NCBI GenBank assembly: GCA_964658305.1
Contig: OZ210885.1
Coordinates: forward strand, 6,200,001 to 6,264,000
Length of the DNA: 64,000 bases
Direction: 5' to 3'
From: Leptogorgia sarmentosa
Lineage: Eukaryota
A program made the position numbers and the translations under genes. Under the pieces are notes generated by a model. The model saw nothing but the letters and a program-made list of their open reading frames with translations. It was not told the origin of the DNA and did not search any database. This document shows, piece after piece, positions 7,094-49,067 of the stretch. Position 1 is the stretch's first letter; each line of letters begins with the position of its first letter.

Positions 7094-7296
7094 TAAAATT
7101 GCATAATTTAATTCGAAACAATTTATTTAAGTCAAAAGAAAGAATGGCATGACTGCTTGTGAACAAACATTGTAATGTGTTACGTTTATTCAGCTTGAAA
7201 TATATGGTTTATGTTTCATACACAACTTGTAAGTCTCTTACATTACATGTCACGCGTGTTTGAGCGCACGCTCTGGTGACATCACCTCTAACGTCG

Positions 7297-7556
7297 GGGG
7301 GCTTTGGTGGCGCAATCGTCAGAGCAAGCGCCTTTCACCTCTGAGATCGTGGGTTCGATCCTCACATCAGACCAATGACACTTACGTGAAAAGAGTTAGT
7401 CAACGCTCTACCGAAAGTCGTGGGTTTTCTCCAGGTACTCCGGTTTCCTCCCACAGGGAATGTTGACAGGGTGGGTTGGGATTAGCCCCCTAACTGACCC
7501 TTCCACCGTAGCTGTGCTCCTTGAATCAGACATGAGTCATAAGGTGGCTGCCAGAG
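7297..7556 (+). mobile_element. tRNA-derived SINE with a conserved central (Deu/Nin-like) domain
   Basis: A-box TGGCGCAATCG, B-box GGTTCGATCC, followed by GGGTTTTCTCCAGGTACTCCGGTTTCCTCCCA. Confidence 0.8.
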
Positions 7557-22900: not shown

Positions 22901-23932
22901 TTGTTTGAGTGTGGTAACTTTCGAATGTCGGTTGATTTGTGTAGGTTTGAAACTTGACTTACACCTTGCCATTTCCATGGTAACGTAGCGCATGCACATG
23001 TTTAGGGGTTTAGTTTAGGTTTCGGGTTTCAATGTTACAAAAGGCTGCACGTTAACAGAGCGAGAACGCTAAGCGAACTATTATCAAGTAACGCGGTCGA
23101 AAGATCTATTTTTGTTATACAAGTTGGTGTGCGCCGACCAAAGTAAGTTATATTCACCTTGTCGTATAGTTAGTTTTGGTCTTATCTTATTATCTATAGC
23201 GTAACATGTTGTAGTATTCATGTATATGCATGTTAGTCTTGCGCGCATGCCGTAATCTGTGTAATTCTTTTCCTAATTGTATAGTTCGAACCATACTCAT
23301 TCCATACCAATCCTATTAATCATCTATCTATCGATACCTACAACCTTTAATCTCAACCTGCTATCAAGCTATATCGACAACAGAACATTCATTATTAACT
23401 GGTATTAAAGTTATTGTTTGGTGTGTGTATGTGTGTGAAGTTCGTATTATTGCTGCGCATCATACTTGTATTGGCTCTTGGACATTGCGTCTTTCAATAA
23501 TCTGCCCAGAGAGTCTACAATTTGGAATATCAGTCTGAGTAGCAACAGTAACAAATTTTGGCTGAGATTGAATGGCAACACTTTTTACCATCGGTAGATT
23601 TTTGGATACCAACAGTTCACATTGGATACCTACTTCTTCCTGTGCTGCCATTGGAATGTCGCCTTGGAAGCATTCTCCCAAGGAAAGGATTCTGGGTTCA
23701 AGGGGTCCTTGGAAGTGTTCTGGGTTTTCAATTTGGCATTGTTCCCCTCTGACTGAACCTTGTTCAAGGCAGTCTTGTAGCATCTTTTAATAAAGAAAGT
23801 AACATGCTTTCTAAACAATTTTATCTGCCATTGTTTGGCAATGTATTTTTACATTTCTTTACCATGATTTCTAATAAATTCCATCACATATATTCAAACT
23901 AGGTGTAGATTGTAATACTGCAAGAAAAATTT

Positions 23933-24093
23933 GCTAGAACATTAATTGGGGGGTGCATATTCATATTTTGGCGTTGTGCCGACTGATTTCTTTAGAAATT
24001 AATTCATAAACAACTGATTTCAAAAGAAATCAGTCAGCAGAACGCCAAAATATGAATATGCACCCCCCAATTAACGTTCTGGCGACGGCCCTG
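23933..24093. mobile_element. Short palindromic MITE; related decayed copies at ~2510-2625 and ~12332-12500
   Basis: ATTAATTGGGGGGTGCATATTCATATTTTGGCGTT.. is followed by ..AACGCCAAAATATGAATATGCACCCCCCAATTAA. Confidence 0.75.
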
Positions 24094-24337
24094 ATAACAG
24101 CCCTGATAACAGCATTATCTTCTACTACAGACCTGCCAACCCTTGAGTAGCAGAAATAGTGAGTGCTATCTGAAAAGTCGTGAGATTGACGGAAAAATCG
24201 TGAGACTTCGAAATTTTCAGGTTTGTTCATTAATATGACCAGGGTTAACTTTAACAACACTAGAAAATACGGTGGCCCAAAAGGGCCATAGCATAAATAT
24301 AAATAATAAATACATATATTAAAAAATTCAAGCAAAC

Positions 24338-24708
24338 AATAATAGTCACAACGCGAACAATAATAGTCACAACGCAAACAAATAGTCACAACGCAAACAA
24401 TAATAGTCACAACGCAAACAATAATAGTCACAACGCAAACAAATAGTCACAACGCAAACAATAATAGTCACAACGCAAACAAATAGTCACAACGCAAACA
24501 AATAGTCACAACGCAAACAAATAGTCACAACGCAAACAAATAGTCACAACGCAAACAAATAGTCACAACGCAAACAAATAGTCACAACGCAAACAAATAG
24601 TCACAACGCAAACAAATAGTCACAACGCAAACAAATAGTCACAACGCAAACAAATAGTCACAACGCAAACAAATAGTCACAACGCGAACAAATAGTCACA
24701 ACGCGAAA
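24338..24708 (+). repeat. 19/21-bp tandem array in the left TIR (~19 units)
   Basis: Units AAATAGTCACAACGCAAAC and AATAATAGTCACAACGC(A/G)AAC. Confidence 0.97.
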
Positions 24709-24771
24709 ATGAGACGGAAAATTACAGTGCCCCCAATTGATCCTTATAGTCCCTTTCCATCGCAATACAAA

Positions 24772-26243
24772 ATGGCTGACGCTGAAAGAGAGACCATTAC
24801 ACACTATTTTAACCTTGGTTATTCAAATGAAGTTATTCTACAGTTTCTATCAACATACCATAATATTCAGATTTCTTCACGGACCCTGAAGCGAAGGTTG
24901 CATGATTTGCATTTAAAAAGAAATGGAAATTTAACAGAGGAAATGCAAGAAAGAGCGAGAACGATCATTGAGCGCGAAATCTCAAATGGGTCTGGTGCAC
25001 GTTTGGGTTACAGGTCGATGTGGCACTTGCTACGACTTCAACACCATATCCATATACCTCGTACAGCAGTTGCTCAAATCATAAAAGAATTAGATCCTGA
25101 TGGAGTGGAACAAAGAAGAAGAAGGCGGTTATCAAGGAGACGTTACCTTAGTTTTGGGCCTAACTTTTGTTGGCATATCGATGGTAATTACAAATTACAA
25201 ATTATCTAGTAGAAACATACATAAACTCAATAAATCGAAGCATTATTCAGATTTACTGTTCTTTGTTATTTTCTGAAATATTGAGTGGTTCCTCTCTATG
25301 CTGCTATGAAACTATTTACGCTGCTTTATTAATATTTGTTTCACTTTAATATTTTTTATTAAACAGAAGGTACAGTGCATGTACATGAACTTTCATGTAT
25401 TTGCCCATTTCTTGCGTAGTAATGTACATAGTACAGACAATGACTTTAAATATAGTTTTCCGTATTGTAGGATATGACAAGCTGAAACCATATGGGTTTC
25501 CAATCCATGGGGCTATAGACGGCTACAGCCGAAAAATTATTTGGCTTGAACTTGTGCGGTCTAACAACAGACCTGAAGTTCCTGCGAGCCTATATCTTAA
25601 TGCAGTAAGAAATAATGAGGGTTGTCCTCTTATTGTAAGAAGCGATTGTGGGACTGAGAACGGAACACTTGCAGGTATGCAGTGCTATTTTCGCCAGAAT
25701 GGAAATGACCAATTTGCCGGGAGCAATGCACATAAATATGGCACATCCCCTGCGAACCAAAGAATAGAGAGCTGGTGGTCTCACTTTCGCAGAGCAAGAT
25801 CGGGGTGGTGGATTGATTTCTTTAAGGATATGGTAGCATATGGTATTTTGGAACTTGGAAATGTTTTGCATATGGAGTGCCTTTGGTTTTGCTTTGAGCC
25901 TGTTCTTTCACAGGAGCTTGAAGATATCAAATTGCATTGGAACACACATCGCATTCGTCATACAAGAAATTATGGTACAGTGTCCGGAGTTCCTGATGTT
26001 ATGTTCTTCTTACCACAGCAGTTTGGTGCAGTTGATTGTAAGCGCATGGTTAGCATGCAAAAGATTGAAGAAATGGAACAACATTTACCAGCACATTATG
26101 ACTTGGAATCTGAAACATCAGAAAACTACAGAGAGTATTTCAATTATGTAATTGAAAACGAAAGTCTTTATCTTCCCAATAATGCAGCTGAGGCTTTCGA
26201 GTTGTACCAAAAACTGATTGGTTTTGCTTGCCCTGTGGATTAA
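24772..26243 (+). CDS. IS3EU DDE transposase, 2 exons (24772-25183, 25471-26243), 394 aa, intact
   Basis: A phase-1 GT-AG intron joins WHIDG|YDKLKPYGFPIHGAIDGYSR. The second Asp is in VRSDCGTEN and the Glu in NQRIESWW. The N-terminus is HTH-like (ISSRTLKRRL, LGYRSMW). 1185 nt, no stops. Confidence 0.92.
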
Positions 26244-26289
26244 TTAGGAGTAGGTTAAGGTTTTATAACCGTGGTTTAGTGGTTATATG

Positions 26290-28253
26290 TATAGGATAGA
26301 CAATGATCATGCGTGGTCAGTGGGATATAGAGAATTAGATCCTGAGAATTAGATACACATGAAGGCTGTAGGCCTGAGTGGTCGTCTAACTTACTAAATT
26401 GTAGGGAGTTTATATCCCACTGAACACAAGTGATTATTGTCTATCCGACTTAGAACATGATCTCAGCCACGAGGAATATTTGTCTTTAAAGTTATTTTGT
26501 CTTAAAGTCTAAAATGAAATTATCCTTAGCATTCTTATTGCGGGGTAAAGAAATAAGATTTACTCTTTGATGTTGTGATTTGCTACCTACACTGGCCACG
26601 TTTTTAAGAAATAATAGCACCCGTAGTGACTCTATTTGAGTGACTCTTAGTATGCTCTATATTGAGCATACAAATGAATCAAATAGCCTCGCTACGAGTG
26701 CAAGAATTAATAGTCTATAAGACATAGAGCACTGAAATACTTGTTTCTAATTGGCCTAGTGGCTGTGATTATGTTTCAAATATGACACATGCAGCTGCAG
26801 CTAAAACCTGTATAATTGTGAAGGAACTTGCAGCTTGAGCAAGTCTTAAAGATCATTTGCATGAGAGATTTACACGTTCAATTTCTCAGCTTTTCTGCTT
26901 TAGACATAATCTGGACTAATTATTGAATACATAATTCAAAATGTAGCACTTCAGTACTAACCAAAATGAATATATTTACACAACAATTTATTATATGTTA
27001 TGTTTCAGTTCTATAACTGCAAACAATATGAACACATCTTGGCTATCAAGCCAACACTTGGAATGCATTAATAAGCATTATGCATGTGAACACTCAACAC
27101 AGCATGTATTACATATATAATAATGAAATCAAGTTTGCACTTTCAACAATAATTGTTCTTAGACATGAACATGAGTAATAAGCCCTTTTTGAATTTGGTC
27201 CTAACTGTTGTGAACAATATAACTGTTTATTACTGTGTACAACATTACACTCGATTATTGTACTACGAACATGATCACAGCCAATCAGAAATGAGTATTT
27301 CAGTGGTTTATATCTTAGAGACTATTAATTCTTGCATTCGTAGTAAGTCTATTTGATTCATTTGTATGCTCTACATAGAGCATTATTACTTTGGCTATAA
27401 AATAAAAGAGAACAATAGCCTCTTTAGTGTGCTCTACAGTATATACAGTAAAGCATACGAATGAATCAAATAGACTCACTACCAGTGAGCACTATTATTT
27501 CTTTAAAACGTGGCCAGTGTAGGTAGTGGATCACAACATCAAAGAGCAGCAAGGGTTTTACTCACTACCTAAACGACAAAACATATTCCACGTTTCGAGC
27601 AAAGGCCCTTCGTCTGGAAATTAGTAGTGTACTTTAGTCACTACTAATTCCCGATGGAGGGCCTTCGCTCGGAAGGATGAGGTAGTGAGGGGTAGTGAGT
27701 AAAACCCTAGCTGCTCTTTGATGTTGTGATCCGCTACCTACTGTATACTGGCCACGTTTTAAAGAAATAATACTGCTCACTGGTAGTGAGTCTATTTGAT
27801 TCATTCGCATGCTCTACTGTAAATAAAGCATACTAAAGAGGCTATTTCTCTCTTTTGTTTTATAGCCAAATTAGTATGCTCTAGATCTATACAGAGCATA
27901 CAAATGAATCAAATTATTCAAATAGACTTACTACGAGTGCAAGAATGAATGGTCGAATCTGTTTTATCGTTAAGGTAGTGATTAAAACCCTTATTTTAAA
28001 AAATACTTCTTTACATTACTATAAGAATGCTAATGACAATTTCATTTTAGACTTTAAAGACAAAATTACTTAAAAGACAAATATTCCTAATGTATGTGAT
28101 TTCTGTGATCATGTTCTAAGTCGGATAAACAATAATCACTTGTGTTCAGTGAGGTATAAACTCCCTTGAATTTTGTTAGATGACCACCGAGGCCTACGGC
28201 CCTCTTGGCCGTCTATATCCCACTATACACACATGATTGTTGTCTATCCTATA
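26290..28253. mobile_element. Old fold-back element with ~250-bp inverted ends, each containing a hairpin
   Basis: 26290-26540 (TATAGGATAGACAA..CCGACTTAGAACATGATC..AAAGTCTAAAATGAAATT) is inverted at ~28020-28253. Confidence 0.7.
27324..27950. repeat. ~620-bp palindrome resembling inverted Penelope-like terminal repeats; partial copies at ~26563-26720 and ~30890-30982
   Basis: The arms are reverse complements around a centre at ~27632. Central motif TTTCGAGCAAAGGCCCTTCGTC. Confidence 0.75.
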
Positions 28254-28322
28254 CAGGTACATTGGTCTGCTTGATGTGCTTACACCATTTACCAAACAGG
28301 TGTGAATGACCTTTTTCCTGGT

Positions 28323-31300
28323 CTATAACAGGCCAAACCCAACACAATCCTTTATTGCGGAGGTCATAATTTCCTTCATTTCCTCTCCGTTACAGATGTG
28401 GACTGGCATTTTCACCTGAAGATCACAAGTCGATGTGGTTGGTCGACACCTGCAGTTTTCTTTGCAGCCATGCACAAAAGTGAGGGTGAACTTTTTGGGA
28501 AAGCCAAGAACAGGGACAAACTTGGTTCCTGATATCCATTTCATTAGTATTGAAATGGATATGTCACCTGTAAAAGATTGTGATCATACATGTAAATAAG
28601 ATAACTTGATATTATTTTACTTAAAGTACAGTTTCAGGGCTCAAAATAACAGCCGAAATACATGTATCTCCGATCAAGATGACCAGTCAACCTCATTTTA
28701 GCTCGATCGAATTGGTTATTGACCTGTCACTAATACACATAATTTACACTATTAACGTGAACAAATAATTTGTTTTGAGACACACAAATTCTCTTGTTTG
28801 ACGTTTTAAATGCTGAAGACGTTATCATGCATGGTTACTATAGTGCTTTCGGGGAAATCACCAATGGCAACGTTGGCCAAATACAAATAAAATTTCAGTG
28901 TAGAAGGATGAGCAAATTAATTTTCACTCAACAAAAAATCTCCATCGGTTTAGGGGTTGTCATTACGACTTTTTTAAGCATGGGTGTCTTGTTAAAAACC
29001 CCTAAAAGGGTTGTTTGTCGATTTGAATCATATGATTTTCCCGCCTTCGCAGCATTTTGTGTAGTATGACTACCTTGGACTTGGCATGTACATTCGCTAC
29101 ATTTTCCAACAAGGAAATTTTCTCCGCTGTAACAGGGTGTTTTATCGGACCAAGTGACAGAACATATGTTACAAATTGAAGTCTTGCAAGAAATGTAACG
29201 GTATTTGATATTTTTCTGTCCACACTTCCAACAATCCATAATCGCCTCACAGAAAACAACCTTATTAGAACACTTTTTGAAAACAAAATTGAAACCTTTC
29301 AAGTTCAACCAGGATATAATTATTTACGCTTTTTCAAGAAAAAACACGTTTTGATGGTGTATAGAGTAACTGCATTCTTGACAAGAAATACGCAATCTTT
29401 CCCTGGCAATATTTCAGCAGAACACTGAAAAGAAAACCGACTAATAATTTTTGCGGAAGACGTGAAAATGTGGCCGGTCAAACTGACTGGCAAGGTAAAA
29501 AAGTCAACAGCATTTTTGGCCAGTCATTGTCTGTTGACCTGCTGTTATTTTGAGCCCTACGGGTTTGAATGAAATATTTAAGAGTAAATAGCAATTTTCT
29601 ACTTATTACCTACTACTATGCAATAAAAAGTGAATAGCAACTAGATGGCCACTATATGATATACTGTGATATGATATGTTGTGTGATATGGTACTCTATG
29701 TTTATTAATCGACATCGTACTTTTGTTTTGAGTTTGCTGCAGAGCGATTTATGTAGACCGATTTTGCGTTAACAGTATGAAATGTAGCAGATTAAAGCAT
29801 TAAGGAAAATACCCAATACTTGACCTTCATACATACAATCTACCACAAAATGTGAAGGTCAAAATGTGAAGATAGGTCACCGATGAAACTAATAAGTAAA
29901 ATCATTAAAATTCAAAGAAGATGTAAAATACCCGCTGAAATTCTCCTTACATACTTTACTGGGTGTGTAATTGATATATGTGGCTGCATGTTAGTTGTTT
30001 TTAGTGTCCATGTGACACATATTGAGTCATATCGAAGAACACACAAGGCATAAATTTTGATCTACATTACATACCATCTTCTGGAAGTGATTCCACATAA
30101 TCACAAAAATACTTGTAGGCATCAACCTCCTTTTCCTTGAGTATTTGAGACATACTGAATGATGGGAGAATTTCTTCAATAAGTGCATCTGACGACATAT
30201 GGAATATGGCATTGCTTGGATCAAATATTGGTCCCCATAGCTCAGGGGAATCACGCATAGAGGACAAGATGCTGCAACAACTTAAACCCTCTTCCAACTG
30301 CATTAATGATGGCAGTGCATCAGAAAAGTGCTCTTTCATACAAATGGACCTAAATTTGGTAACAAAAACAGATTCACATAAGTCAAAAATTTTTTTTCAT
30401 GTTATTGCTGATACCTTTAAAGAGAGAACTCTACTCCCAAAACAAGTTGGGCTTATAATGAAAGATCCTATGCTTATTACACAGGGCACAGATTTGCACT
30501 AATTTGCAACCCAGTGCAAAAGTGCCATTGCTGTAATCGCATCAAATTTGCAAGTTTGCAAATATTTTAGCAAATTTAGAAACCAAATTATGGACGAAAA
30601 TACCCACTAATTCACTTGTGCAAATGAAAGGTAATTTTTGCCAAAATTATCCTATACCCACTAACGAACAAGAGAATTCAAAAAAGAGAATTGTATTTAC
30701 CAATATGAGGGTAAAAATTTAATTACCAATCCAAATTTGAACAAAATTTGCACTATAGCAAATTCGATGCGATTACGGCAATGGCAACTTTGCAGGGGGT
30801 TGCAAAGTTGGTGCAAATTTGTTTTTTGTTTGTCACGTGTTGTTTTAATATATTCACTTATATAAAACACATGTTTTTGGCCCGACCCCCACTACTAATT
30901 CCCGACAAAAGCTCTTCGCTCGAAATGACGAATGTTATTGAATCATTTAAGTAGTGAGTAAATTCCTTGCTGCTTTTTGATAGTTATGGGATTTCCTGGG
31001 ACATTTTGAAAAAGATAAAAAACATTTATTCACTTACTTAATGATGTTTGAGACACTTGCTTTAGTCTCTCTTTGAGGAACTCCAGTATACCCAACTTCA
31101 GAAAGTACATCTAATACATCATCACTTACAAGTACTTCTCTCAATTCTTCATCATCAGGTGCACTTGTTATCTGTAATGATATTCATATACTAGACATCA
31201 ATTAACTAGAAATACATGCATGCAGAACCCCCTTGCCTGCACTGAAGGAAAATACACACATCCCAATTTCATTGTAACATGAAGTACCGTATTTTCTCAA

Positions 31301-33846
31301 ATTGGTAAAATAGTGATAAGATATGTCCTTTTAATTATAAAATTATCAAAAGCCTATATCAAAAAAGCTATATGTATGCTATTATGTATTCTTTTAGCTT
31401 TGATATACCGTACCGGTACTGAAAATTCAACTTGACATCTTACAGTATGTAATGCTTTGAAATTTTCATAAAATTTTGCTAGCAGTAATTTCTTGTTATT
31501 TTTCTTGTAAAATGTTAATTAATTATATAATTGACATTTTACAGCAACTAATAAATCTGTTAATATGGGAATAAACATATTGCCTATAACGTACAACTAC
31601 TTCAGCATACCTTATCTACAACTTCCTTATACATTTTCAAGTCTTCTGTGGAGGGCTGCTGTTTTGTGAGGTATCTGTAAACATTTGCATTGAAAAACCA
31701 AGGTGATGGCCCACCCTGAAGAATTGACATGGCAATGACTTCACCAGCTAAACGAAAATCTTGGTTGATCAATGAAACTGTAGAGTTAATTGGCTTTCCA
31801 TCACGAAATAGCCTCCTCTCAATGTATTCCAACAGTTCTAAGTAAAAAATTACAAAAACACATATGTTAAGGTGGCTCGATACAGTTTTTTTAAAAAAAT
31901 GGAAATTTCCGATTTAGATCCGTATTTTTGGAAAATTGTTACCTATTTGTAAATAAGGAGTACTTTTGTTATGTAAAACAACATCTAAATAGTTTGAATT
32001 CTTTCACAAAAGTTGCACAACTGCCGTTGCTATGGCAACAATTACGTTTCAAAATGGCAGATATTTTGGCTTGAAAGTAATTTAACTCGAAAACGACATC
32101 AGTGATCCCCTATTTTTATTTCAGAAAATATTTTCTCTTGGTATATTGAATTGCTTTGTCAACTTTAAAAAAATTCTATCATGCCAAAAAAATTTAAATT
32201 AGGAAAATGCGATTATTAACAAAAACGTTGATTTGGCATGATAGAATTTTTTTTAAATCGACAAAGTAATTCAATATACTAAGCAAAAATATTTTCTGAA
32301 ATAAAAATAGGGGGTCACCAAGGTCCTTTCTGAGTTCAATTACTTTAAAGCCAAAATATCCGCAATTTTGAAACGTCATTGTTGCCATAGCAACGGCAGT
32401 TGTGCAACTTTTGTGAAAGAATTCAAATTAAACCCTTTAGATGTTGTTTTACATAACAAAGGTACTCTTCACCTTCAAACAGATGATAATTTAAAAAAAA
32501 AACGGATCTAAATCGTAAATTTCCATTTTTTAAACAACTGTATCGAGCCACCTTAAGTATGGGTAAAGGCATGAATGCAAAAAAATGACCATTTAAGTAA
32601 AACAAGAACTCAAAATACCAGAAAAAAACTCTCTTTTGGGCCCACCATCATCGATTGCAGGTTCACCAATGAAAGTAATTTTAACCAAATCAGCTGGCGA
32701 AACTTTCCCATTCGACCAATACTTTTTGAAATCGACCCACACATATTTCCTTCTAAGATTTAATCTTGTGACCTTGGTTGTCATTACAGTTTCTTTTATT
32801 TTCAATATCACCTCTTTAACGTTTTCACAGGCCACTGTGGTTGCAGCTGGGGGATTTGGATTTGGCAAATCAGAGTCTTCGCTGCTTGTGTGACCATCAT
32901 TGACAGACCCCACCCAAATATCACAGCACATGTCAGCATGCTCTGCAATACTTTCTAATGGGAAAAAACAATGGCATGTAGGGCATTCAATCAGCTTTTC
33001 CACAACATCTTGATTCTCATTGCAATGGGGATATGTAGATGATACCATTTCGCGATAAGGAGAAACGTCTTGAAGCTCTTTATGCTCACGTGATGTGGAT
33101 GGGTTAGTTCCATTGGTTGGTGGAATACTTGGACTTGGGTTAACAATTCTATAACTGCGATCATTTAACACAAAATCATTTTCAGAATCATCATCATCAC
33201 TATCCCAAGCCAATTTTTTAAGTTTAGACATTTCTGCTTGCATGAAATATGATTTCAACGCAATATAAAGAGTGATGCGGTTATAGTTTTTGCCAATGTC
33301 CTCCTTGTATTTACTCAGTACAAATTCATCATTTGTGCCAGGAAGGGTGATTATTTCGTTGCCATCTCCATTTAACAAAACATGTTCAAGTTCTCCTAAA
33401 ATGTTCTTGTCATGGTTGGCATGCTTCCTTACGGATTTTTCCAAAATTTCATTTCTCCCGGCAAATGATGAAACCTTAATTGGAAGTGTTTTCCCTCGGC
33501 ATTTTTTTAAATTTATGCCATCGTTGTCCAGCTTCATGTAGCCAACATTGATGCTTACTTCTACCTCTGGAATTTTCTCTGAGACTTTAATTTTTTTCTT
33601 TTTGGGCTCAAACTTACTTTGCCGATCTGTTTCCTTTCGCTTCATGAAATCTTTGAAACTAACAGTGCTAGCGCCGGTCTTCTGGCCGATTGTTTTTGCG
33701 ACAGTCGAAGCAACGCTATTTGAGCTTTCTGCCTGCTGACTGTGCTGAGACCCACAGCTTTCTACGTTTGATACAAAAGATTGCCCGCAATTATGACAAA
33801 AATTACCATTTGTTATTCTTTTGGTGCCACATTTACTACAAAACAT
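28323..33846 (-). CDS. Zinc-ribbon + UBZ + HECT E3 ubiquitin ligase (G2E3-like HECT), 5 exons, 702 aa, intact
   Basis: Exons 33846-32619, 31837-31611, 31171-31038, 30349-30075 and 28567-28323. All introns are GT-AG with compatible phases (1,0,2,1), giving 2109 nt without stops. Motifs: FCSKCG..FCHNCG; CPTC..IAEHADMC; FIGEPAIDDGGPKREFFS; FRLAGEVIAMSILQGGP; WISG; RPTTSTC; C-terminal GFGLL*. Confidence 0.9.
28635..29559. mobile_element. Old non-autonomous DNA transposon in HECT intron 4
   Basis: TIR CAGGGCTCAAAATAACAG / CTGTTATTTTGAGCCCT. The TSD is degenerate. Confidence 0.75.
30480..30822. mobile_element. MITE in HECT intron 3
   Basis: ATTTGCACTAATTTGCAACCC..TGCCATTGCTGTAATCGCATCAAATTTGC is inverted at 30759-30820. 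Confidence 0.7.
31871..32552. mobile_element. Kolobok-type palindromic MITE in HECT intron 1
   Basis: TTAA|GGTGGCTCGATACAGTT..AACTGTATCGAGCCACC|TTAA. The arms are complementary over ~330 bp. Confidence 0.9.
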
Positions 33847-34239
33847 TATGCAAATGAACGATCCGACGGATTCAATACGAAGTCAGATTATTTTCGACAA
33901 CAAAGCCCTGTGACAAAGCCAAGAAGGCAAGAAACGAAATTAACGATTGGCTGCTCGTCAGTGCTTCCACTTTCGAATTTCAAATTTCCATATATTTCAT
34001 AGTTATATTCGTGCATCATATGACGTGCATGAACAGTTATTATTTAATGGGGGGGGGGGGGGGGCTACTAGAATTGAGGCGGGCAATGTTTTAATACAGT
34101 AAATTCATATTTAGGGAGGGTCATGTTTTTAAAAACGGCGATTTAGGGAGGGCCCACTCTTTTAAAACCAATGTTCTCTACAGAGTGCATAAAAAAACTC
34201 AACAGATGTGAAATCGCTCTCAACTTCTGGTTAATGTTA

Positions 34240-34540
34240 CAAGGCCGTCGGAAGCGGGGGGGGGGCTGGGGGGGCTTGAGCCCCCCAATAATTTTTACAT
34301 GTACAAAAAAAACCAAAACAAAACACCCAGACTAGAAAAATGCGAACCTGATCTTCAGAATTCTGGAAAATGTACTTCCCAAAACGCTGGAAATCCTATT
34401 TTCGGGGGTTCTAGATTTCAAAATTTTCTACGGGGGGCATACCCCCAAGCAGTGCGAACGCCTTTGGCATTCGCCTAGTGCAGTAGTGCTCAGGCTTTTG
34501 GCGAGCCCCCCCCAATGTATATTTGCTTCCGACGGCCTTG
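34240..34540. mobile_element. hAT-like MITE
   Basis: Perfect 16-bp TIR CAAGGCCGTCGGAAGC / GCTTCCGACGGCCTTG. The TSD is unclear. Confidence 0.8.
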
Positions 34541-35399
34541 ATGTAGATTGTTTGGGTACTTAATTTAAATCATCAGAACCCAGGGGAGGGTGTCGTTTCC
34601 ACCAGAAGAAAAACGGCTTGCGCACGAAATTTAAACGCTTAAAATTAATTTTGAGTTAGTGGACGGAAACCTTGTTGGGTTTTGTATTGCTGCTTAAAAT
34701 TTCAGAAAATTGCTTAAGTTTAAGCCCTTCAAAACGTCGCGCAAACATTTGTTTTGGAATAATAAGCTTTTTATATCCCTAATTACCTAATCTGCATAAT
34801 ACAAATTAGCTATAAGCGAATTTTAGCATGCAAAACGCTAAGTATTGTAAAAAAACGAAAGTTAGCGCAACGTTTTAGGGTTACACTTAAGGGTTACACT
34901 CAAGCAACTTAGATCTTTTAGTGGGTTTCTTTCCGTTTAACACGTGGTTTAACTCGCAGCTCGCATGATTTCATGCATGAATGACTGCTCGGACACTAAA
35001 CGAACAATTGAACCGTTCGTGCATGAAAAACGTTACACGAACTGCGAGGTGAACAGAAAAAAAGCCAAGTTTATTGTCCGCGCGGCGGACTTAATATTCG
35101 TCAAATTTTCTGAAACTTTCATTCGTGATAAAAAATTACCCAAATTTTAGTCCATTAACTTAAAGTGGATTTTAAACCCATCATTCATGTTTGCACAAAC
35201 CATTCAAAATGAGACTTCTACAAAGCGCTCTCTCTTTTGTCCAGGTTAAATTTTCTGTTTGTTCTTAGTGTTAGATTGAACTTAACATGCTAAAGTGCTA
35301 TACTAATACAAATCTTTATGATAATTTGAAAAATTAATAGTATTTTATAGAATTTAGACATTTAAAAATTGTCTACTTTTTTTATACACCCTGTAGTAC

Positions 35400-35552
35400 T
35401 TATAGAGTTTATGGCGTGATGATTTTCCAACTGAATCGGTTTCAAATATCTCAGCAAGATATTTAGCCAAGGCATGCGTTGTTGAACCTTGGGAAGCTGC
35501 AATAGGTCTTAGGGGGACATTGGGCTTATGTATCTTAGGTAAGCCATATATA
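35400..35552 (-). mobile_element. Penelope-like RT fragment
   Basis: YGLPKIHKPNVPLRPIAASQGSTTHALAKYL. Confidence 0.8.
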
Positions 35553-36559
35553 AAAAACCCACTCATTTTTATCTGTTGGAAAAGACACACCCCGGGTATT
35601 GAAAATTTAAATCTCAAATTTTTCTGCTTATTTTTCATTATAAGCCCCCAAAAAATCCAAAAGATGGTACATGCATGCAAAAGAGTACGAAAGTCTTGAA
35701 CGTTTCTGTTTTGGATATGCCAGAGAGAGAAAATTCTCAAACAATGTAAAAAACAATATTGTGTCGAAATTGCGGTAACAATGTTCAGGGCCACGTGTCT
35801 CCTTCCATGTACCAAAGGATGGCAAAAGTATTTTCCATCATTTTAGTAGCCCTCCCCCCAATACATAATTTAATGATAACTCCCAGTGGCATCGCCAGGC
35901 TGTTCAGACTGCGCGGGGGGACGACGCGAGCGCCAAAGACGCAAGACCTTTTTTGGGGGGGGGGGGTTCGGGGGCATCCTCCCCCGCCGAAAAAAATTAT
36001 TTGTAGGGTCTCTATATAACGCTATTTCTCGCATTTTCATGTAAGTTTTATGATGATAAGCTGAAAGACATGCATCGGCACCAGTTTTTACAAAAACAAA
36101 TTTCTGTTGGTAGCTAGTCTAATTAAATGTGTCACCAAGAAGCCACACATTGGCAATTTTTGTTATAAACAAACAGCTTTTACAATTAAGGCAACTTTCT
36201 GTTGCTGGCTAATTTAAATGTGTTAACAAGATTATCCAACTCAGTCTTGTCTGCATTGTCTCTTTTTATTCTGATACGCCGACATATCAAGAAGATTTGA
36301 ACCCATTGCACAATAGCGAAGGTTTTACTTGCGGTCTTGATCTGACGAAATGTTCGTTACGTTATGTTATTCTTCGAGAGGTAAAAGTCTTTTACTTTCG
36401 TTAATACGCATACCGTAAATGATCGATTAAGCGCCACTAGGCTTATTAGGCTACATACCTCTAAATAAAGATGCGGCGCTTTTTACATTATTTTAATTAT
36501 CTTATTTAAGAGTGGCGCTTATTCGACAGCTGCACTTATTTAAAAAGTGAATGAGGCAC

Positions 36560-38450
36560 TGATAAATAACCAAAGTTAAATCTGCAATTCAACTCCAGAA
36601 GAAAAATTTTTATTCTGAGAAAGTACGACACCTTAAAAAGAGCGACTGCAGAACTTGGTGGAACAATCAAACACTAAATCACCAATTCACCTTGAGGAAA
36701 ATGGCACCATCCTTACTAATGATAAATTAGTTACAACTTTAAACCAATTCTTTTTGTCTGTAAATGACGATGTCCCATCCCTAGACCTGCATAGTTTACC
36801 AGCCTTTTTACCTGCTGCTGACCAATCACCTACCATACACCCCTACCAAGTTTGTAAAAAGTTAATTAATCTTAACCCCTTTAAAGCCACTGGCCCTGAT
36901 ACCTTACACCTCGCATCATCAAGGAATTTTCTTACGAATTGTCTGACCCACTTGCACAAATTTTTAACCTATCCTTATCCTCTGCCACTACCCCTTCTTC
37001 TTGGAAGTCCTCGAATATTTTCCCAATCGCAGAAGAAACATCTCCCAAAGAAAAAAGTGATCTACGCCCAAACTCCCTAACGTCATGTATATCAAAAGTT
37101 CTAGAGGAATTTGTCGTTGAATGGATCTTAGAGGATATTGGACATCGTATAGATCCAAAACAATTTGGATGTCTGCGTGGTTCATCAAGTACCTTATGCT
37201 TACTTGATATATTTCATTCTTGGCTTTCCAAACTGGATGTTGATGGATCCTCATTGTGGATTGTCTTACTAGACTAAAGTACGCGGTAAGGCTTTTGCCA
37301 GAATCAAATTGAATGTATTGGTTACTAAACTGATTGACATGGGCCTCCGCGCAGATCTCTTATTCCATTGATATGTGATTTTCTAACTGATCGCACGCAG
37401 AGAGTTAAAATTGGGAAATCAGTCTCTGAGTGGGCACAAGTGAATGCCGGTGTCCCCCAAGGAACTAAATTAGGACCTGTTTTGTTTTTGGTTATGGTGA
37501 ACGATTTGAATACATTACACTCCGATAATTGGAAGTACGTCGATGATCTTACCATCTCTGAAATCATTCCGAAATACAGCCATTCTAACATGCAATATGA
37601 ATTAGACCATATATCTAACTGGTGTGACTTGAACTATATGAAACTTAATTCAAAGAAGTGCAAAGAACTGAGAGTTAACTTTCAACGTAATACGCCAAAT
37701 TTGCTAGAGTTGTCACAGTTCACCATTAATGGAACAGTAATGATTGAAACTGATACTAATCATAAATTGCTAGGTCTTCAAATTCAAAACTTCTTAAAAT
37801 GGAATGCACACGTTGAAAACATTACCAAGAAAGCTGCAAAACGCTTGTGTATTATTCGCATACCAAAGCGTAGTGGAGTACCTGAAGACCTGATACGTAT
37901 ATACATATCCCTCATTCGTTCCATTCTGGATTACGCATGTTCTGTGTGGCATACCCGACTTCCATGCTACCTTATAGAGAAGATTGAACATATACAGAAT
38001 CGCTTCTTTCGCATTATATACCCCGATTTATCTTATCGAGATGCTTTAGCTCTTACTGAATGCCCAAGTCTTGAAGACAATCGCCAAAGATTGTGTTTTA
38101 AACATTTTAATAACCTTATAACCCAACCGGGTTCGAAACTTTCGCACTTAATACCTCGTTCTAAGTATGCATGAATCGCATGGACGATTAGTTCGTAGTG
38201 GACGCAATTTGACTTCGTATAAATGTACGTAGAACGGACAGATTCAAAAATAGTTTTTTCCAGCTATGAAGGTTAGTACTTGTAACCAGCAATAATTAAG
38301 TTTTTATAATATAGAATTCCAGTATTATTACTGTAATGCATAGTTTTATTTTTATCTTAACCTTTAACACGCTTCTAATATATAACGTAATTCACCTTGA
38401 TGGTACGAATTTATATAAATTTTCAATAAAATTCAAATTCAAGTTCAAAT
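36560..38450 (+). mobile_element. Decayed 5'-truncated L2/CR1-group LINE
   Basis: KATGPD, DLRPNSLTS, KQFG, GVPQGTKLGP and KYVDD over several frames. Tail AATAAAATTCAAATTCAAGTTCAAA. Confidence 0.9.
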
Positions 38451-39129
38451 ACGGCACATATTGCCTTGTGGGAATCCAATCAAATTTGGGCCGAGTTAGT
38501 CAGTGGGCCGACGCTTAGCTCTATTTTTCATCCAGCGAACATGCGCTGACTATTTATTCCTTATTTATATGTATTGTATGTAGCAGATATGCAGGGTAGT
38601 AGCCTGAGGAATTTAGACCCTATGTGAGGCGCGGGAGATAATGCCAGCTAGCAGAGTAGCTGTGTATGTCGGGTCGGATTGAGCTCGTTGAATACGAAAG
38701 GTTGTCTGGGTATGCAATCCGAATCCAATCGAAGGGAAGGTCGTCAAATTTTTTTTGGATATCTAATCGCAAAAACATTTGGTGTTAGGCCGAATTTTTT
38801 ACCCAAACTTTTACTATAAAAATTATCGACCATTTTCAAAAAAATGCGCCCACCCCCCTCCCATGCAACTACCATGCATGGTTCTAGTATATAAGTATAT
38901 AGACAGACGATCTCAATTATAAATAAAGTCTAACTCAAAAGTCAGTCCGATCCGATAGAACTTCATTTCAATAATAACTTCATGTGAACAAAAACTTCAT
39001 TTGAATAACTAAGGTTAAAATAGTGTGTGATGAAATGTGATGATCTCTCTTTCAGCGTCAGGCATCTTGTATTGCGATGGGAAGGGACTATAAGGATCAA
39101 TTGGGGGCACTGTAATTTTCCGTCTCATT

Positions 39130-39655
39130 TTCGCGTTGTGACTATTTGTTCGCGTTGTGACTATTTGTTTGCGTTGTGACTATTTGTTTGCGTTGTGACT
39201 ATTTGTTTGCGTTGTGACTATTTGTTTGCGTTGTGACTATTTGTTTGCGTTGTGACTATTTGTTTGCGTTGTGACTATTTGTTCGCGTTGTGACTATTTG
39301 TTCGCGTTGTGACTATTTGTTTGCGTTGTGACTATTTGTTCGCGTTGTGACTATTTGTTTGCGTTGTGACTATTTGTTTGCGTTGTGACTATTTGTTTGC
39401 GTTGTGACTATTTGTTTGCGTTGTGACTATTTGTTTGCGTTGTAACTATTTGTTTGCGTTGTGACTATTTGTTTGCGTTGTGACTATTTGTTTGCGTTGT
39501 AACTATTTGTTTGCGTTGTGACTATTTGTTTGCGTTGTGACTATTTGTTCGCGTTGTGACTATTATTGTTCGCGTTGTGACTATTATTGTTCGCGTTGTG
39601 ACTATTATTGTTCGCGTTGTGACTATTATTGTTCGCGTTGTGACTATTATTGTTT
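39130..39655 (-). repeat. 19/21-bp tandem array in the right TIR (~27 units)
   Basis: Reverse complement of the 24338-24708 array: GTTTGCGTTGTGACTATTT and GTTCGCGTTGTGACTATTATT. Confidence 0.97.
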
Positions 39656-42600
39656 GCTTGATTTTCTTAATATATGTATTTATTATTTATATTATGCTAT
39701 GGCCCTTTTGGGCCACCGTAAGAAAATAATCAATAGATATTCAATCTTAGGATAGTATGCATTTATATTTTGTCATTTTTGTGAAGATAACTGTAATGCA
39801 AGGCTTATTATTAAAAATAGGCGGTTTTTTCTTTGTGGCTTTAGTAAATATAATGATGAAGTGAATTGTGCCTTGCCGTAAATTCCTGCATTTAGGCGCT
39901 TGTTTTCAGGCTTCAGCTGTGCATGCGAGAAGAATGTAAACATTGGAATAAAGGATTAAAGGTGACTCAAGCAATAATAGCATATTTCTTTTTTCCCATG
40001 AATGTTTGGAATCACTTTAACAGAGATTTTGCCAAAAATCGTGAGATTTAAGGACTTAATCGTGAGATCGTGAGAAAGCATCAAAAATCGTGAGTCTCAC
40101 GATTAAATCGTGAGACTTGGCGGGTCTGCTACTACTATGTAGTTTGTATTACTGCAACCGTGTAAATCACACTATAAACTGATGTATAAAATTTGTGATA
40201 AATTTATTAAATATATTCAGCCCGATGTTGAGCGTAAAAATATATAAAGTGGATATGCAATAAGGGTGCTAAAACTTGGGGAGGTTCATACAGGTTTGGC
40301 TGGTTCGTAATTATCAGATCCAAAATGGCTGTTCCTCTTGTAGGGACTTTGACAATTTGCTTCAGGTTATGGCTTGATACTATATTCGATATATCGAAAT
40401 CATTAAAATCACCAAGGACTAGGCCACAGTTGAGATGTTGGTTGCATAATGAATCTATTGTTAAAACTAAAAATTACCATAAACTGAAATCAAGATGGCA
40501 GACAAAATATGAGCTCCAGGTTTAAATCGAAAAAAAAGTTTTTTTTTAAGGTCATTTTTATCTTTGTAGGCAATTTTCTTTGCCTTGAGTGATACGCGAT
40601 AATGAGTAAAACCAAACTTATCACCACAGAAGCCATTTCAGCCATTTTGGACGAGAAATTAAGTCCAATTCTCCTGACTGTTAATGGCCTCAAAGATTCT
40701 GTTCAGTTCCTAAGTAAAAAATTTGATGATGTCTTCAAGAAGGTAGAAGAACTAGACAATAAGGTCTCGCACGTCATTTTAGAAAACAAGCACCTCAAAG
40801 CCGAACTTCTGTGACTTTCAACTATCGTCGATCAACAGAGTAATGAATTAGATGAAATCGAGCAATATTCTCGACGCGACTGCCTTGAGATTTCGGGGCT
40901 ACCTCAAGAGAATGATGAAGATCTGAACAAGTTAGTAGTTAAAATTGGCTCTCTAATGGATGTCGAATTAGACGAGAGGGATATATCTATAAGTCATCGG
41001 CTTCCAAAATCAAGAAGTGAAAACCAGCAAGTAAATCGAAGTGCAGCTAATGCCTCCGCTAAAATCATTGTCAAATTTACACGTCGAGACACCAAAGCTA
41101 AGTTTTATCAAGGTCGTTTACGATTAAAAGATAAAACAACTCGAGATCTTGGTTTTTTGAGGTCACCTGAACACAAATTATATATTTCCGAAAGTCTCAG
41201 CCCGAGGAAGAATCAACTATTCAAGAAATGTCTCAAGTTTAAACGAGACAAATTCTTTCGCTATATATGGACATACAATGGCAGAATTTATTTGAGGAAA
41301 AATTCAACTAGCCCTACACATGCTATTAATGTTGTTGCTGATTTGGAGAAATTATCATCTTAACGATAAGTACTATGTAATTATTATAAGTGCATGATTA
41401 ATTACTATAATAAACATGATTAACTACTATAATTTACCGAAATTTGAACTGACTTCTAGGCTTTCAAATTTACCAAACTTAGATGGTCATGATGTGGAAA
41501 ATCATCTATTGCCTGAGGTTAATTTTAAATATTACTCAACAACAGAGTTCCATAATGCGCAGAGTATCAGCAGGGTAACAATTGGATCTTCGTTCTCTGT
41601 GTTACACTGCAATGTAAGAAGCCTGTCTGCTAATCATGATAGCTTAATGTCATTATTATCTGATTTGGATTTCAAATTTGATGTCATAGGTATTTCTGAA
41701 ACTAAAATAATGCAAGGAAAGGACCCGATCACTAATATTTCAATGCCAGACTATTCATTTAGTTCACAACCCACCTTGTGTATTGCTGGAGGAGTTGGTT
41801 TCTTTATTAAAGATAAAATTAAATTTCATGCTAGAAATGATTTCACTACTACCACTAATGACTTTGAATGTTTGTCAATTGAAATTCACTTAAATAATCA
41901 ATGCAATATTGTGTGCTTGGTGATATATCGACATCCCCATAGTTGTCTTGAAAATTTTTCCAACTATCTTACTCCCATTATTGAAAAGATTTCAAATGAA
42001 AGGAAATACTGTGTATTAATGGGAGATTTCAACCTTAATTTATTGAATTGTGAGTCTCATGGTGGTACTGATGAATTTCTTAACACAATGACTTCTTACT
42101 TTTTTCAACCACATATCTTGCAGCCCACTAGGATTACTGATCATTCTGCTACATTGATCGATAACATCTACTTTAATTCCATTGATCATTTTACCACTAG
42201 TGGCAATATAATTTACGACATTTCCGACCATCTTCCTAATTTTCTTATCATAAGTAAATTGAATTTTAAAATATTTAAAAATGGTGTCTTTGTGAGAGAT
42301 TATTCCCATTATAATGAAGAAGATCTTATAACAGAAACTGGTGATGTGAATTGGGAAACTGTTTATAATAGTGATGATGTAAATTTAGCATTTAATACTT
42401 TTTTTAATAAACTAAACATGATTATTGAGAAACATGTGCCTTTGAAAAAATTGTCTAAAAATAAGGTGAAACTGCTAACCAAACCATGGATTACAAAAGG
42501 CCTCATGATTTCAATCAAGAATAAAAACAAGCTTTACAAGCTGTATCTTAAGTCTAAAAATGGTTATTATCTATCTAAATTTAAATTAGTTAGGAATAAA

Positions 42601-43310
42601 TTAAAACATTTATTGCTTATAAGCAAAAAGAATTATTATAATAATTATTTCTTAATGAAAAAGGACAATATCAAGGAAACATGGAAGGGAATTAAGCAAC
42701 TAATAACACTAAAAAAAGTAAATTATAATTCCTTCCCAACATTAATAAAGGTGAGAAATGAAAGAATTACAGGGGCGGATCTAGCCAATTTCTTGACTGA
42801 TGCTCGGAGAAGACCTTCACCAAATTAGGGAGGTCCGGCATTCCCCCCCGGAAAATTTTTGAAATGTGGACCTCGCAAATGCCATTTCCTGCGTTCTGAG
42901 CAAACCTTTAGTGCAGAAATTCGCATTTTCAAACTGAGTAAAATAAAGGCGCATTTAGCGAAAAAAATAATGTGGATACAATTTCAATGACCAACAATAG
43001 GATGACGCTAATATAGGTTAGGTCAAAATCAAACTAGTTTAACTCTACTTACTAAAACCTACAAAAAATCGGCTTTACCGCTTACCTTATTTGAACAAGC
43101 ATGGCGTGTCTTTTCGATTAATACTCACCTTTAACAGTTACCAGTTAACACTCTAGAGAGCGTGGAACAATAGTGAGAGAGTAGATGCAAAACCATTTTC
43201 TTTCTGTGAAAACACAGTGAGGAAATTGTTTAGGCACCGCCTCCCCCCTATGTGTGGTCGCGTGTGAAGGGTGGCAAGATGTCACTGTTTATAAGGAATT
43301 ATTGTTTCTG

Positions 43311-45125
43311 AGTTTATAAGTAAAATGTTCCAAGGTAGATTTCCACCAACAGCGGCAGCAGGATGATAAGGATAAGTTTATAAGTACAATGTTCCAAGAT
43401 AGATTTCCACCAACAGCAGCAGCAGGATGATAAGGATAAGTTTAATAAGTAAAATGTTCCAAGATAGATTTCCACCAACAGCGGCAGCAGGATGATGAGG
43501 ATAAGTTTAATAAGTAAAATGTTCCAAGATAGATTTCCACCAACAGCGGCAGCAGGATGATAAGGATAAGTTTAATAAGTAAAATGTTCCAAGATAGATT
43601 TCCACCAACAGCGGCAGCAGGATGATGAGGATAAGTTTAATAAGTAAAATGTTCCAAGATAGATTTCCACCAACAGCAGCAGCAGGATGATGAGGATAAG
43701 TTTAATAAGTAAAATGTTCAAAGGTAGATTTCCACCAACAGCGGCAGCAGGATGATAAGGATAAGTTTAATAAGTAAAATGTTCAAAGGTAGATTTCCAC
43801 CAACAGCGGCAGCAGGATGATAAGGATAAGTTTAATAAGTAAAATGTTCAAAGGTAGATTTCCACCAACAGCGGCAGCAGGATGATAAGGATAAGTTTAA
43901 TAAGTAAAATGTTCCAAGATAGATTTCCACCAACAGCGGCAGCAGGATGATGAGGATAAGTTTATAAGTAAAATGTTCCAAGATAGATTTCCACCAACAG
44001 CAGCAGCAGGATGATGAGGATAAGTTTAATAAGTAAAATGTTCAAAGGTAGATTTCCACCAACAGCGGCAGCAGGATGATAAGGATAAGTTCAATAAGTA
44101 AAATGTTCAAAGGTAGATTTCCACCAACAGCGGCAGCAGGATGATGAGGATAAGTTTATAAGTAAAATGTTCCAAGATAGATTTCCACCAACAGCAGCAG
44201 CAGGATGATGAGGATAAGTTTATAAGTAAAATGTTCCAAGATAGATTTCCACCAACAGCAGCAGCAGGATGATGAGGATAAGTTTAATAAGTAAAATGTT
44301 CAAAGGTAGATTTCCACCAACAGCGGCAGCAGGATGATAAGGATAAGTTTAATAAGTAAAATGTTCCAAGATAGATTTCCACCAACAGCGGCAGCAGGAT
44401 GATAAGGATAAGTTTAATAAGTAAAATGTTCCAAGATAGATTTCCACCAACAGCAGCAGCAGGATGATGAGGATAAGTTTAATAAGTAAAATGTTCAAAG
44501 GTAGATTTCCACCAACAGCGGCAGCAGGATGATAAGGATAAGTTTAATAAGTAAAATGTTCCAAGATAGATTTCCACCAACAGCAGCAGCAGGATGATGA
44601 GGATAAGTTTAATAAGTAAAATGTTCAAAGGTAGATTTCCACCAACAGCGGCAGCAGGATGATAAGGATAAGTTCAATAAGTAAAATGTTCAAAGGTAGA
44701 TTTCCACCAACAGCGGCAGCAGGATGATGAGGATAAGTTTATAAGTAAAATGTTCCAAGATAGATTTCCACCAACAGCGGCAGCAGGATGATGAGGATAA
44801 GTTTATAAGTAAAATGTTCCAAGATAGATTTCCACCAACAGCAGCAGCAGGATGATGAGGATAAGTTTATAAGTAAAATGTTCCAAGATAGATTTCCACT
44901 AACAGCAGCAGCAGGATGATGAGGATAAGTTTATAAGTAAAATGTTCCAAGATAGATTTCCACTAACAGCAGCAGCAGGATGATAAGGATAAGTTTAATA
45001 AGTAAAATGTTCCAAGATAGATTTCCACCAACAGCAGCAGCAGGATGATGCGGATAAGTTTAATAAGTAAAATGTTCCAAGATAGATTTCCAGCAACAGC
45101 GGCAGCAGGATTAGTTTAATAAGTA
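43311..45125. repeat. 64/65-bp tandem repeat, ~28 units, downstream of the hAT transposase
   Basis: Unit AGTTTAATAAGTAAAATGTTCCAAGATAGATTTCCACCAACAGCGGCAGCAGGATGATAAGGATA. Confidence 0.97.
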
Positions 45126-45141
45126 TAGTAGATGTTTCGAC

Positions 45142-48100: not shown

Positions 48101-49067
48101 AAATGACTGGTAGGCAACCTGAGAGATGGTATTGGTGAATATTGTGTTCTCGTTGATTGGTTTACCATGCAATGAGTGGCCGTAGATCATAGGGTGGTTG
48201 GCATAGTAAGATGAATGACTAAACATCTCGATGCTGGTTAAACAACGCAGATATGTACATATTGTTTCATCTCCAATAAGAGCAATTGAGCAGGCATTAA
48301 AAAGACAATTTCCATTCCCACTGACTCTGTAAATTATCAAGATTTCAACTATTGAAAGAATATTCTTAATCTAATCAGCTTTAGAACAACTGTAGGCCAC
48401 CAGCATAGCATTTACTTATAAAATTACAAAGAATAAAAATATTCAAAGGCCATCTTTGAATAATTTTATATTACAAATACTATAGCATGTAATACTAAAC
48501 AATGTTATTTCCCACGTGGTGGCTTCGCAGCCTATGTTTCATAGGCAGCTTGCGGGATTACTAAGTAAATCGTGACTAAATAGTCACGATACTAAATGTG
48601 CAGATATTTTTGAATATCGCTGATCGAAGGTTAATATTATATAAATAATTAATTTTATGTGACTGGCGGCTTGACAGACGCGCTAATATTGCAAATCCTC
48701 TACGAATATTATTATCATCGCATGCATAATAATTATATGCTAATATCTACACACGAATATAACAATAAATTATATTCAATGAAATCGAAACCTAAAACCG
48801 ACGATTATATATATTTTAGATTATACACACTAAGTACCTCACAGGCTGGCGAGATCCACTTCTTCGACGCTCAGACGCAGGAAATTGCATTCTGGCCACT
48901 TCGCAATACCGCAAGCGAGCATTTGCGTTGTCTCCGCTTTCATATATTTTGATTATCTCCGTCAGACATTGAATTTTAATTCTTCGTAAAACAGCTAACT
49001 GACCTTCCGTTGTGTAAACTTTAGTCAGCAAGCAGTCCCTGACACTTTGCAACAGGTTATTCGCCAT
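45142..49067 (-). CDS. hAT (THAP12/ZMYM1, Tip100-like) transposase with an N-terminal OTU/vertnin-like domain; one frameshift near 45480
   Basis: Exon 49067-48838 splices (GT-AG, phase 2) to 48326, giving PVR|VSGNGNCLF. It continues with a TTF-type Zn finger (WLAYS..FCLTC), ALRGH, LADEAAD, GQGYDGA, YVHCGSH, TRW and the dimerisation motif LPVTTCTCERSIS..RLNDLALL. Confidence 0.88.

What the first reader, a model, noticed from the sequence alone, without database searches (positions are those of the whole stretch)
24268..39720. 15.4-kb IS3EU-type transposon carrying an intact five-exon HECT E3 ubiquitin ligase gene
Seen in sequence: two convergent, intact spliced genes lie between TIRs with a perfect 6-bp TSD. 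One is a 394-aa DDE transposase (+). The other is a 702-aa protein (-) whose five exons join through GT-AG introns in compatible phases with no stop. It has an N-terminal CxxC..CxxC zinc ribbon, a CPTC..H...C finger, and a complete HECT domain with catalytic Cys (RPTTSTC) and Phe at position -4 (GFGLL*). Established: the P-x-x-x-T-C cysteine and the -4 Phe are required for HECT ligase activity, and CPxC..H..C is the Rad18-type UBZ4 ubiquitin-binding finger. Inference: this is a mobile unit with its own ubiquitin reader-writer. It could degrade host silencing or repair factors, or control transposase turnover. IS3EU elements are known to have a second ORF, but I cannot verify whether a HECT cargo has been documented.
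Basis: partly seen in the sequence, partly recalled or inferred. Interest (0 to 1): 0.88.

Follow-up and report, generated by a model that had tools for sequence, protein, structure and literature searches.

The report
Transposon carrying its own ubiquitin ligase
This is an intact cut-and-paste jumping gene that carries, beside its transposase, its own gene for a predicted ubiquitin ligase; related gene pairs sit side by side in corals and a priapulid worm, so the ligase is likely a long-standing working part of this transposon group and not a chance passenger.

Summary
Window 24268-39720 has TACGG..CCGTA ends and an exact 6-bp duplication, and contigs of an uninterrupted site carry that hexamer once. 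It holds a 394-aa IS3EU-type transposase and a convergent five-exon, 702-aa HECT gene whose four junctions score best by homology. The ligase is therefore the lineage's regular second gene, not a recent capture. Activity and substrate are untested; my best guess is that it ubiquitinates its own transposition complex. Against: no second insertion was shown in this organism, and the HECT domain of G2E3, a similarly divergent ligase, is reported non-functional. I found no paper on the pairing; Repbase could not be checked. This scan noted the same pairing before in 8 other windows.

The parts
24262..24267 (+). left target-site duplication AGAAAA
   Evidence: single copy in uninterrupted-site contigs
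24268..24830 (+). left terminal inverted repeat: unique 60-bp tip, 19 tandem units, start of the transposase gene
24772..25183 (+). transposase exon 1 (weak HTH matches; first catalytic Asp137)
25471..26243 (+). transposase exon 2 (Asp196, Glu237; Pfam rva_4)
26288..28255 (.). nested inverted-repeat insertions between the two 3' ends
28323..28567 (-). ligase exon 5: HECT C-lobe, HxCxxxCxC motif, catalytic Cys669 (28427-28425), Phe -4
28636..29558 (.). nested MITE-like insertion in ligase intron 4
30075..30349 (-). ligase exon 4
31038..31171 (-). ligase exon 3
31611..31837 (-). ligase exon 2 (HECT N-lobe)
31867..32556 (.). nested palindromic TTAA-ended MITE in ligase intron 1
32619..33846 (-). 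ligase exon 1: zinc ribbon, conserved helix, ubiquitin-like domain, acidic linker, UBZ-like finger, start of HECT
32926..32985 (-). UBZ4-like finger, aa 288-307
33229..33573 (-). ubiquitin-like (beta-grasp) domain, aa 92-206, predicted
36637..38430 (+). nested decayed LINE fragment (RVT_1; frameshifts and stops)
38995..39720 (-). right terminal inverted repeat: 27 tandem units and a decayed copy of the transposase start (16-codon frame)
39721..39726 (+). right target-site duplication AGAAAA
24128..40128 (.). host MITE of about 540 bp split by the insertion (CTACTA on both outer sides)

Best explanation
This is an intact IS3EU-type DNA transposon with two open, convergent genes, a DDE transposase and a predicted HECT ubiquitin ligase, and the ligase likely serves transposition by ubiquitinating the element's own transposition complex. 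Shown: ends, duplication, uninterrupted site, both reading frames, and shared contig lengths or neighbouring accessions plus co-divergence of the two genes in relatives. Predicted: domain order zinc ribbon, helix, ubiquitin-like domain, UBZ-like finger, HECT with Cys669. Inferred, step by step: the transposase binds the repeat arrays in the ends, cuts the element out and inserts it with a 6-bp stagger; the ligase docks through its N-terminal helix and ubiquitin-like domain; the finger binds ubiquitin so that chains can be extended; tagging removes the stable post-integration complex for gap repair and limits transposase dose. My odds: structure 0.95; regular co-inherited gene 0.9; active ligase 0.75; substrate is the own complex rather than a host factor about 0.45.
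For: Ends and duplication. In run X1, contigs cover 24128-24269 and continue with window 39729-39750, i.e. one AGAAAA and no element. Transposase core reads like Repbase IS3EU-1_HM in the supplement of PMC10045372 (by eye). Relative P0011 (42% identical over aa 1-702) folds as HECT: Z 21.4, rmsd 5.5, 352 aligned to Rsp5. 11 of 15 ligase clusters looked up share a contig length or neighbouring accession with one of 15 transposase clusters; 9 named loci in 6 species. Distances of 14 pairs correlate (Spearman 0.71, p=5e-5; 0.61, p=0.001 for 10 pairs after dropping close kin); trees share 6 of 11 splits, reached by 0 of 20000 shuffles. Domains keep 62-77% identity to the three nearest relatives, linkers 9-42%. 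Catalytic motif found by pattern in 22 of 23 C-lobe relatives (the other shows it in the alignment) and -4 Phe in 22 of 23. CUE stands in place of the finger in 7 of 41 scanned relatives. L001, 99% identical to genomic P0015, lacks introns 1 and 2 and keeps intron 3 at the same site and phase.
Against: No second insertion site of this element was shown in this organism. The version in runs X1 and X5 carries four missense changes in the transposase away from residues that close relatives share with the window, so the family may be decaying here. Four of 15 ligase clusters found no transposase partner among the clusters looked up. Shared contig length is not adjacency on megabase contigs, and I saw no DNA, orientation or ends for those relatives. 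Five of 11 splits differ between the trees. The HECT is divergent (14-17% identity to solved HECTs), and G2E3's HECT is reported non-functional. Co-divergence follows from linkage alone and does not identify a substrate.
Confidence: 0.5

Rival explanations
1. The ligase is active and co-inherited, but its substrate is a host protein: a silencing factor, a histone or a repair factor at the break. It would be an anti-silencing or repair-steering gene.
For: Fungal IS3EU elements carry TET/JBP and alpha-kinase genes, and TET/JBP is proposed to counter methylation (PMC12730594, passages). UBZ4 fingers read ubiquitin at damage sites (recalled). All co-inheritance evidence fits equally.
Against: No chromatin-reader domain was found in exon 1. 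The N-terminal module stays recognisable from corals to a priapulid and zebrafish, which suits a partner that travels with the element; this is a weak argument.
Confidence: 0.33
2. The HECT domain is a non-catalytic scaffold or localisation module, as reported for G2E3, and the protein works as a binding cofactor of the transposase.
For: G2E3 and the G2E3-like families are described as extremely divergent, with a non-functional HECT in G2E3. Pfam scores are low (27 bits for exon 5; 44 bits for full-length P0011).
Against: Catalytic Cys and terminal Phe are kept in nearly all of 23 relatives, and a ubiquitin-binding module of either of two types is kept beside them.
Confidence: 0.12
3. A host HECT gene recently captured or merely bracketed by two transposon ends; a passive passenger.
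For: GingerRoot elements capture host gene fragments (PMC6839031, passages). The element appears to be low-copy here.
Against: Neighbouring accessions in 6 named species, three loci in one coral genome, co-divergence and domain-wise conservation. Captured pieces in GingerRoot are fragments, not whole genes.
Confidence: 0.05

Closest known systems
IS3EU/GingerRoot superfamily (Repbase; PMC10045372 and PMC6839031, passages and a supplement search)
   Same: TA..TA ends, 6-bp duplication, integrase-like DDE core with the same motifs as IS3EU-1_HM and IS3EU-1_DR.
   Different: No HECT or ubiquitin gene is mentioned in the main texts searched. This element is 15.4 kb with inverted repeats of 560-725 bp, against 3.9-12.9 kb and 100-150 bp in GingerRoot.
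Rust-fungus IS3EU with alpha-kinase and TET/JBP genes (PMC12730594, passages)
   Same: TAYGG..CCRTA ends, 6-bp duplication, and a protein-modifying enzyme gene in the opposite orientation to the transposase.
   Different: The second enzyme is a HECT ligase. No alpha-kinase was found among 41 scanned proteins that share the ubiquitin-like domain.
G2E3 and the 'GL-Metazoa' divergent HECT family (PMC3673628, passages)
   Same: [quoted passage not shown]
   Different: No RING/PHD fingers here. That paper's main text does not mention transposons. Membership in GL-Metazoa was not tested.
Helitron-encoded VTD/OTU deubiquitinases (PMC9741609, passages)
   Same: A DNA transposon encoding its own ubiquitin-system enzyme, proposed to protect proteins needed for transposition.
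   Different: Rolling-circle elements, and ubiquitin erasers instead of a writer.

Membership tests
IS3EU/GingerRoot | TA..TA termini (TAYGG..CCRTA) | tested here: met
   TACGG..CCGTA; definition
IS3EU/GingerRoot | 6-bp target-site duplication | tested here: met
   uninterrupted site has one copy
IS3EU/GingerRoot | Terminal inverted repeats longer than 30 bp | tested here: met
IS3EU/GingerRoot | Integrase-like DDE transposase with IS3EU core motifs | tested here: met
   rva_4 E=1.2e-23; D196 and E237 invariant in 20 sequences; motifs compared by eye with Repbase entries
IS3EU/GingerRoot | Placement inside the IS3EU clade in a tree with Repbase entries | not tested
   Repbase sequences were visible only as supplement text and were not brought into a tree
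IS3EU/GingerRoot | Dispersed copies at different sites in the same genome | tested here: inconclusive
   no genome held; contigs show no second flank with certainty
HECT E3 ligase | Two-lobed HECT fold of about 350 aa at the C-terminus | tested here: met
   on relative P0011: Z 21.4, rmsd 5.5, 352 aligned; Foldseek E=6.7e-12; window protein aligns end to end at 42%
HECT E3 ligase | Catalytic Cys and Phe at -4 | tested here: met
HECT E3 ligase | Ubiquitin thioester formation and transfer | not testable with these tools
   needs biochemistry; G2E3's HECT is reported non-functional
UBZ4 finger | C-x2-C..H-x3-C pattern | tested here: met
   aa 288-307, nearly invariant in 17 sequences
UBZ4 finger | Match to the zf_UBZ profile | tested here: inconclusive
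   none for the window; below cut-off for relatives, e.g. P0224 E=0.036
Ubiquitin-like (beta-grasp) domain | Beta-grasp fold | tested here: met
   block pLDDT 84-98; nearly all of 50 rows are beta-grasp domains, best Z 8.9, rmsd 4.0, 114 aligned; the subfamily is not resolved
G2E3 (vertebrate) | N-terminal RING/PHD-like fingers | tested here: not met
   exon 1 holds a zinc ribbon, a ubiquitin-like domain and a CCHC finger; no PHD or RING hit
GL-Metazoa HECT family | Clade membership in a HECT tree | not tested
   reference sequences not held

The most novel reading that the evidence does not exclude
A HECT ligase is an ancient second component of animal IS3EU transposons and acts as their own disassembly or anti-silencing enzyme. 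The orphan 'G2E3-like' (GL-Metazoa) ligases of animal genomes are largely these transposon genes, published 'G2E3 expansions' are transposon bursts, and the HECT domain of vertebrate G2E3 is a domesticated descendant.
Probability: 0.3. Interest if true: 0.8.

Novelty: new variant of a known kind. Interest (0 to 1): 0.55.

Why it matters
IS3EU structure and function are described as largely unexplored (PMC11934779, passage). A two-gene element with its own ubiquitin writer makes a clean test possible: does transposition need the ligase's Cys, and what does it tag? It could also re-read a divergent HECT family once put down to lack of constraint, and warns that multi-copy 'G2E3-like' genes may be transposon genes. 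One paper reads 20 G2E3 copies in a hadal sea cucumber as deep-sea adaptation (PMC9700323, passages); I did not test those copies.

Tried and rejected
No whole genome is held, so copy number and other insertion sites could not be counted. No RNA holder listed. The protein atlas gave no answer. Viral-contig scans with both alignments found no relative. The metagenome scan gave 3 short loci; I read only L001, which holds ligase sequence. A recalled link between this ubiquitin-like domain and alpha-kinases was not supported: 0 of 41 scanned. Pair P0021/P0103 was rejected (contig lengths 990592 and 990596 differ). Three of 17 pairs were dropped before the Mantel test for short overlap. Contig 24 of run X6 starts exactly at the terminus with 69 unlaid letters, but its flank is not shown, so it may be the right end of the same insertion. 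Summed contig depth was not used as copy number. An upstream in-frame ATG at 24709 lies in the repeat end and was not preferred, because relatives begin at the 24772 position. Literature: IS3EU+HECT 0 papers; HECT+transposase+DNA transposon+terminal inverted repeat 7 papers, none on this by listing, one checked; G2E3+transposon+HECT 1 unrelated by listing; HECT+G2E3+Nematostella+expansion 0; one supplement of PMC12730594 has no 'HECT'. Kojima's 2019 review and Brooks 2008 were not held. Repbase entries, which may already annotate this gene, could not be read.

Full report
Observation. The element runs from TACGG at 24268 to CCGTA at 39720, and AGAAAA flanks both ends. The inverted repeats are about 560 and 725 bp, hold 19 and 27 tandem units of 19/21 bp, and reach into the transposase start. 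The transposase is 394 aa in two exons and matches Pfam rva_4 at E=1.2e-23. The minus-strand gene has five exons, 2109 nt, 702 aa and no internal stop. Each of its four junctions is the best of 12, 6, 10 and 5 open GT-AG alternatives when scored against three relatives. 33 of 50 homologue records end within 45 residues of the intron-1 site, as expected of unspliced gene calls. Locus L001, 99% identical to genomic P0015, lacks introns 1 and 2 and keeps intron 3 at the same site and phase; it is a partly spliced transcript or an intron-loss copy of a relative.

It is a real insertion. The element splits a MITE of about 540 bp. Contigs in 4 of 4 runs laid on the left flank have loose ends at 24269. 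In X1 the consensus of three contigs begins with window 39729-39750, so the uninterrupted site has one AGAAAA; in the other three runs the consensus is a blend of two contigs. These contigs may be other copies of the MITE or an empty allele. The flank differs from the X1 contig by 4 letters and 1 gap in 142, while the LINE fragment inside the element has several frameshifts and stops. I infer that the element last moved as a 15-kb unit with its nested repeats. Runs of two studies hold versions about 0.6-1.5% different over the listed pieces (my sums from table 8, which shows only part of the records). Of the 40 variants shown out of 372, I scored 38: four fall in the transposase, all missense, and seven in the ligase, four missense and three silent. 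At the four transposase sites the window has the residue that close relatives share. No second insertion site was shown.

Family. TA..TA ends and 6-bp duplications define IS3EU (PMC10045372, passages), and fungal members end TAYGG..CCRTA (PMC12730594, passages). The core motifs match IS3EU-1_HM and IS3EU-1_DR in that paper's supplement by eye. The catalytic triad is D137, D196, E237.

The second protein. Its full-length relative P0011 (42% identical) folds with mean pLDDT 80 and matches solved HECT domains (Z 21.4, rmsd 5.5, 352 aligned; E=6.7e-12). The window's exon 1 folds a confident domain at aa 92-206 whose matches are beta-grasp, ubiquitin-like folds (best Z 8.9); a shared fold shows no function. 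This module has 813 relatives at E<=0.001 among 50%-identity representatives. Of 41 longer ones scanned, 4 have a HECT hit, 7 a CUE hit and none an alpha-kinase; many of the rest look like first-exon gene calls. CUE sits where this protein has its CCHC finger, which suggests that a ubiquitin-binding unit is needed there. The catalytic motif and the -4 Phe are each found in 22 of 23 C-lobe relatives, and 19 of 23 have an HxCxxxCxC motif just before the catalytic loop, possibly a metal site (many of the 23 are close kin).

The pair is old. I looked up 15 ligase clusters and 15 transposase clusters. Eleven ligase clusters share a contig length or neighbouring accession with a transposase cluster; four do not. 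One family shares 7 of 14 listed contig lengths, four of them 25 kb or less. Named neighbours: three loci in Porites harrisoni, two in Acropora muricata, and one each in P. lutea, Montipora capricornis, A. digitifera and Priapulus caudatus. I did not see their DNA. For 14 of 17 pairs with enough overlap, distances correlate (Spearman 0.71, p=5e-5; 0.61, p=0.001 for 10 pairs without close kin). The trees share 6 of 11 splits, which 0 of 20000 shuffles reached; the transposase tree has five nodes under 60% support. Domains are conserved and linkers are not. Ligase exons 2-5 have 8 CpG against 22 expected (p=1.5e-4), a weak hint of gene-body methylation and so of long-term transcription.

Mechanism. 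Cut-and-paste by the DDE enzyme follows from the family. The ligase's role is inferred. I rank first that it tags the element's own transposition complex, because it travels with the transposase across distant hosts and has docking, ubiquitin-binding and catalytic units. That integrase-type complexes need active removal after strand transfer is recalled, not from a call. A host silencing or repair substrate is nearly as likely, given the TET/JBP precedent in fungal IS3EU. A catalytically dead scaffold is possible, as for G2E3 (PMC3673628, passages). A passive capture is unlikely.

Novelty. IS3EU is known, and so are second genes in it. Five searches and term look-ups in five IS3EU, GingerRoot or DDE papers found no HECT gene in such elements; Repbase could not be read and may annotate it. 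Two HECT surveys do not mention transposons in their main text. This scan noted the pairing in 8 other windows; those notes are unchecked, and the score rests on the tests above. Verdict: a new variant of a known kind, interest 0.55.

Noticed in passing
P0219 and P0123 clusters: 20 of 48 near-full-length transposases begin with the same kind of zinc ribbon as the ligase. In the Porites/Acropora family the transposase ribbon's nearest non-transposase match is its own family's ligase ribbon (62%), as if both genes once began inside the inverted repeats.
   Followed up: partly
P0219 and P0123 clusters: One element family falls in single 90%-identity clusters across Porites, Acropora and Montipora (the transposase also in Stylophora), which suggests horizontal transfer among corals.
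   Followed up: no
window 28425-28470: HxCxxxCxC motif directly before the catalytic loop, kept in 19 of 23 relatives; possible metal site.
   Followed up: partly
window 38997-39065 (minus strand): The right inverted repeat holds a decayed copy of the transposase start, a 16-codon frame pointing toward the ligase gene 5 kb away; it may be a leftover promoter or leader.
   Followed up: no
window 45416-48370: 984-aa stop-free frame with DUF4371 (E=2e-18), hAT-like, beside a 65-bp tandem array at about 43250-45230.
   Followed up: no
window 4880-14204: 521-bp inverted arms (93%) enclose decayed LTR-retrotransposon-like and LINE pieces.
   Followed up: no
window 23933-24083: A palindromic MITE in the left flank is absent in contigs of 3 of 4 runs (joint 23928-24107); a presence/absence polymorphism.
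   Followed up: partly
P0031, P0032: Relatives with the same finger and HECT start but a different N-terminal domain.
   Followed up: no
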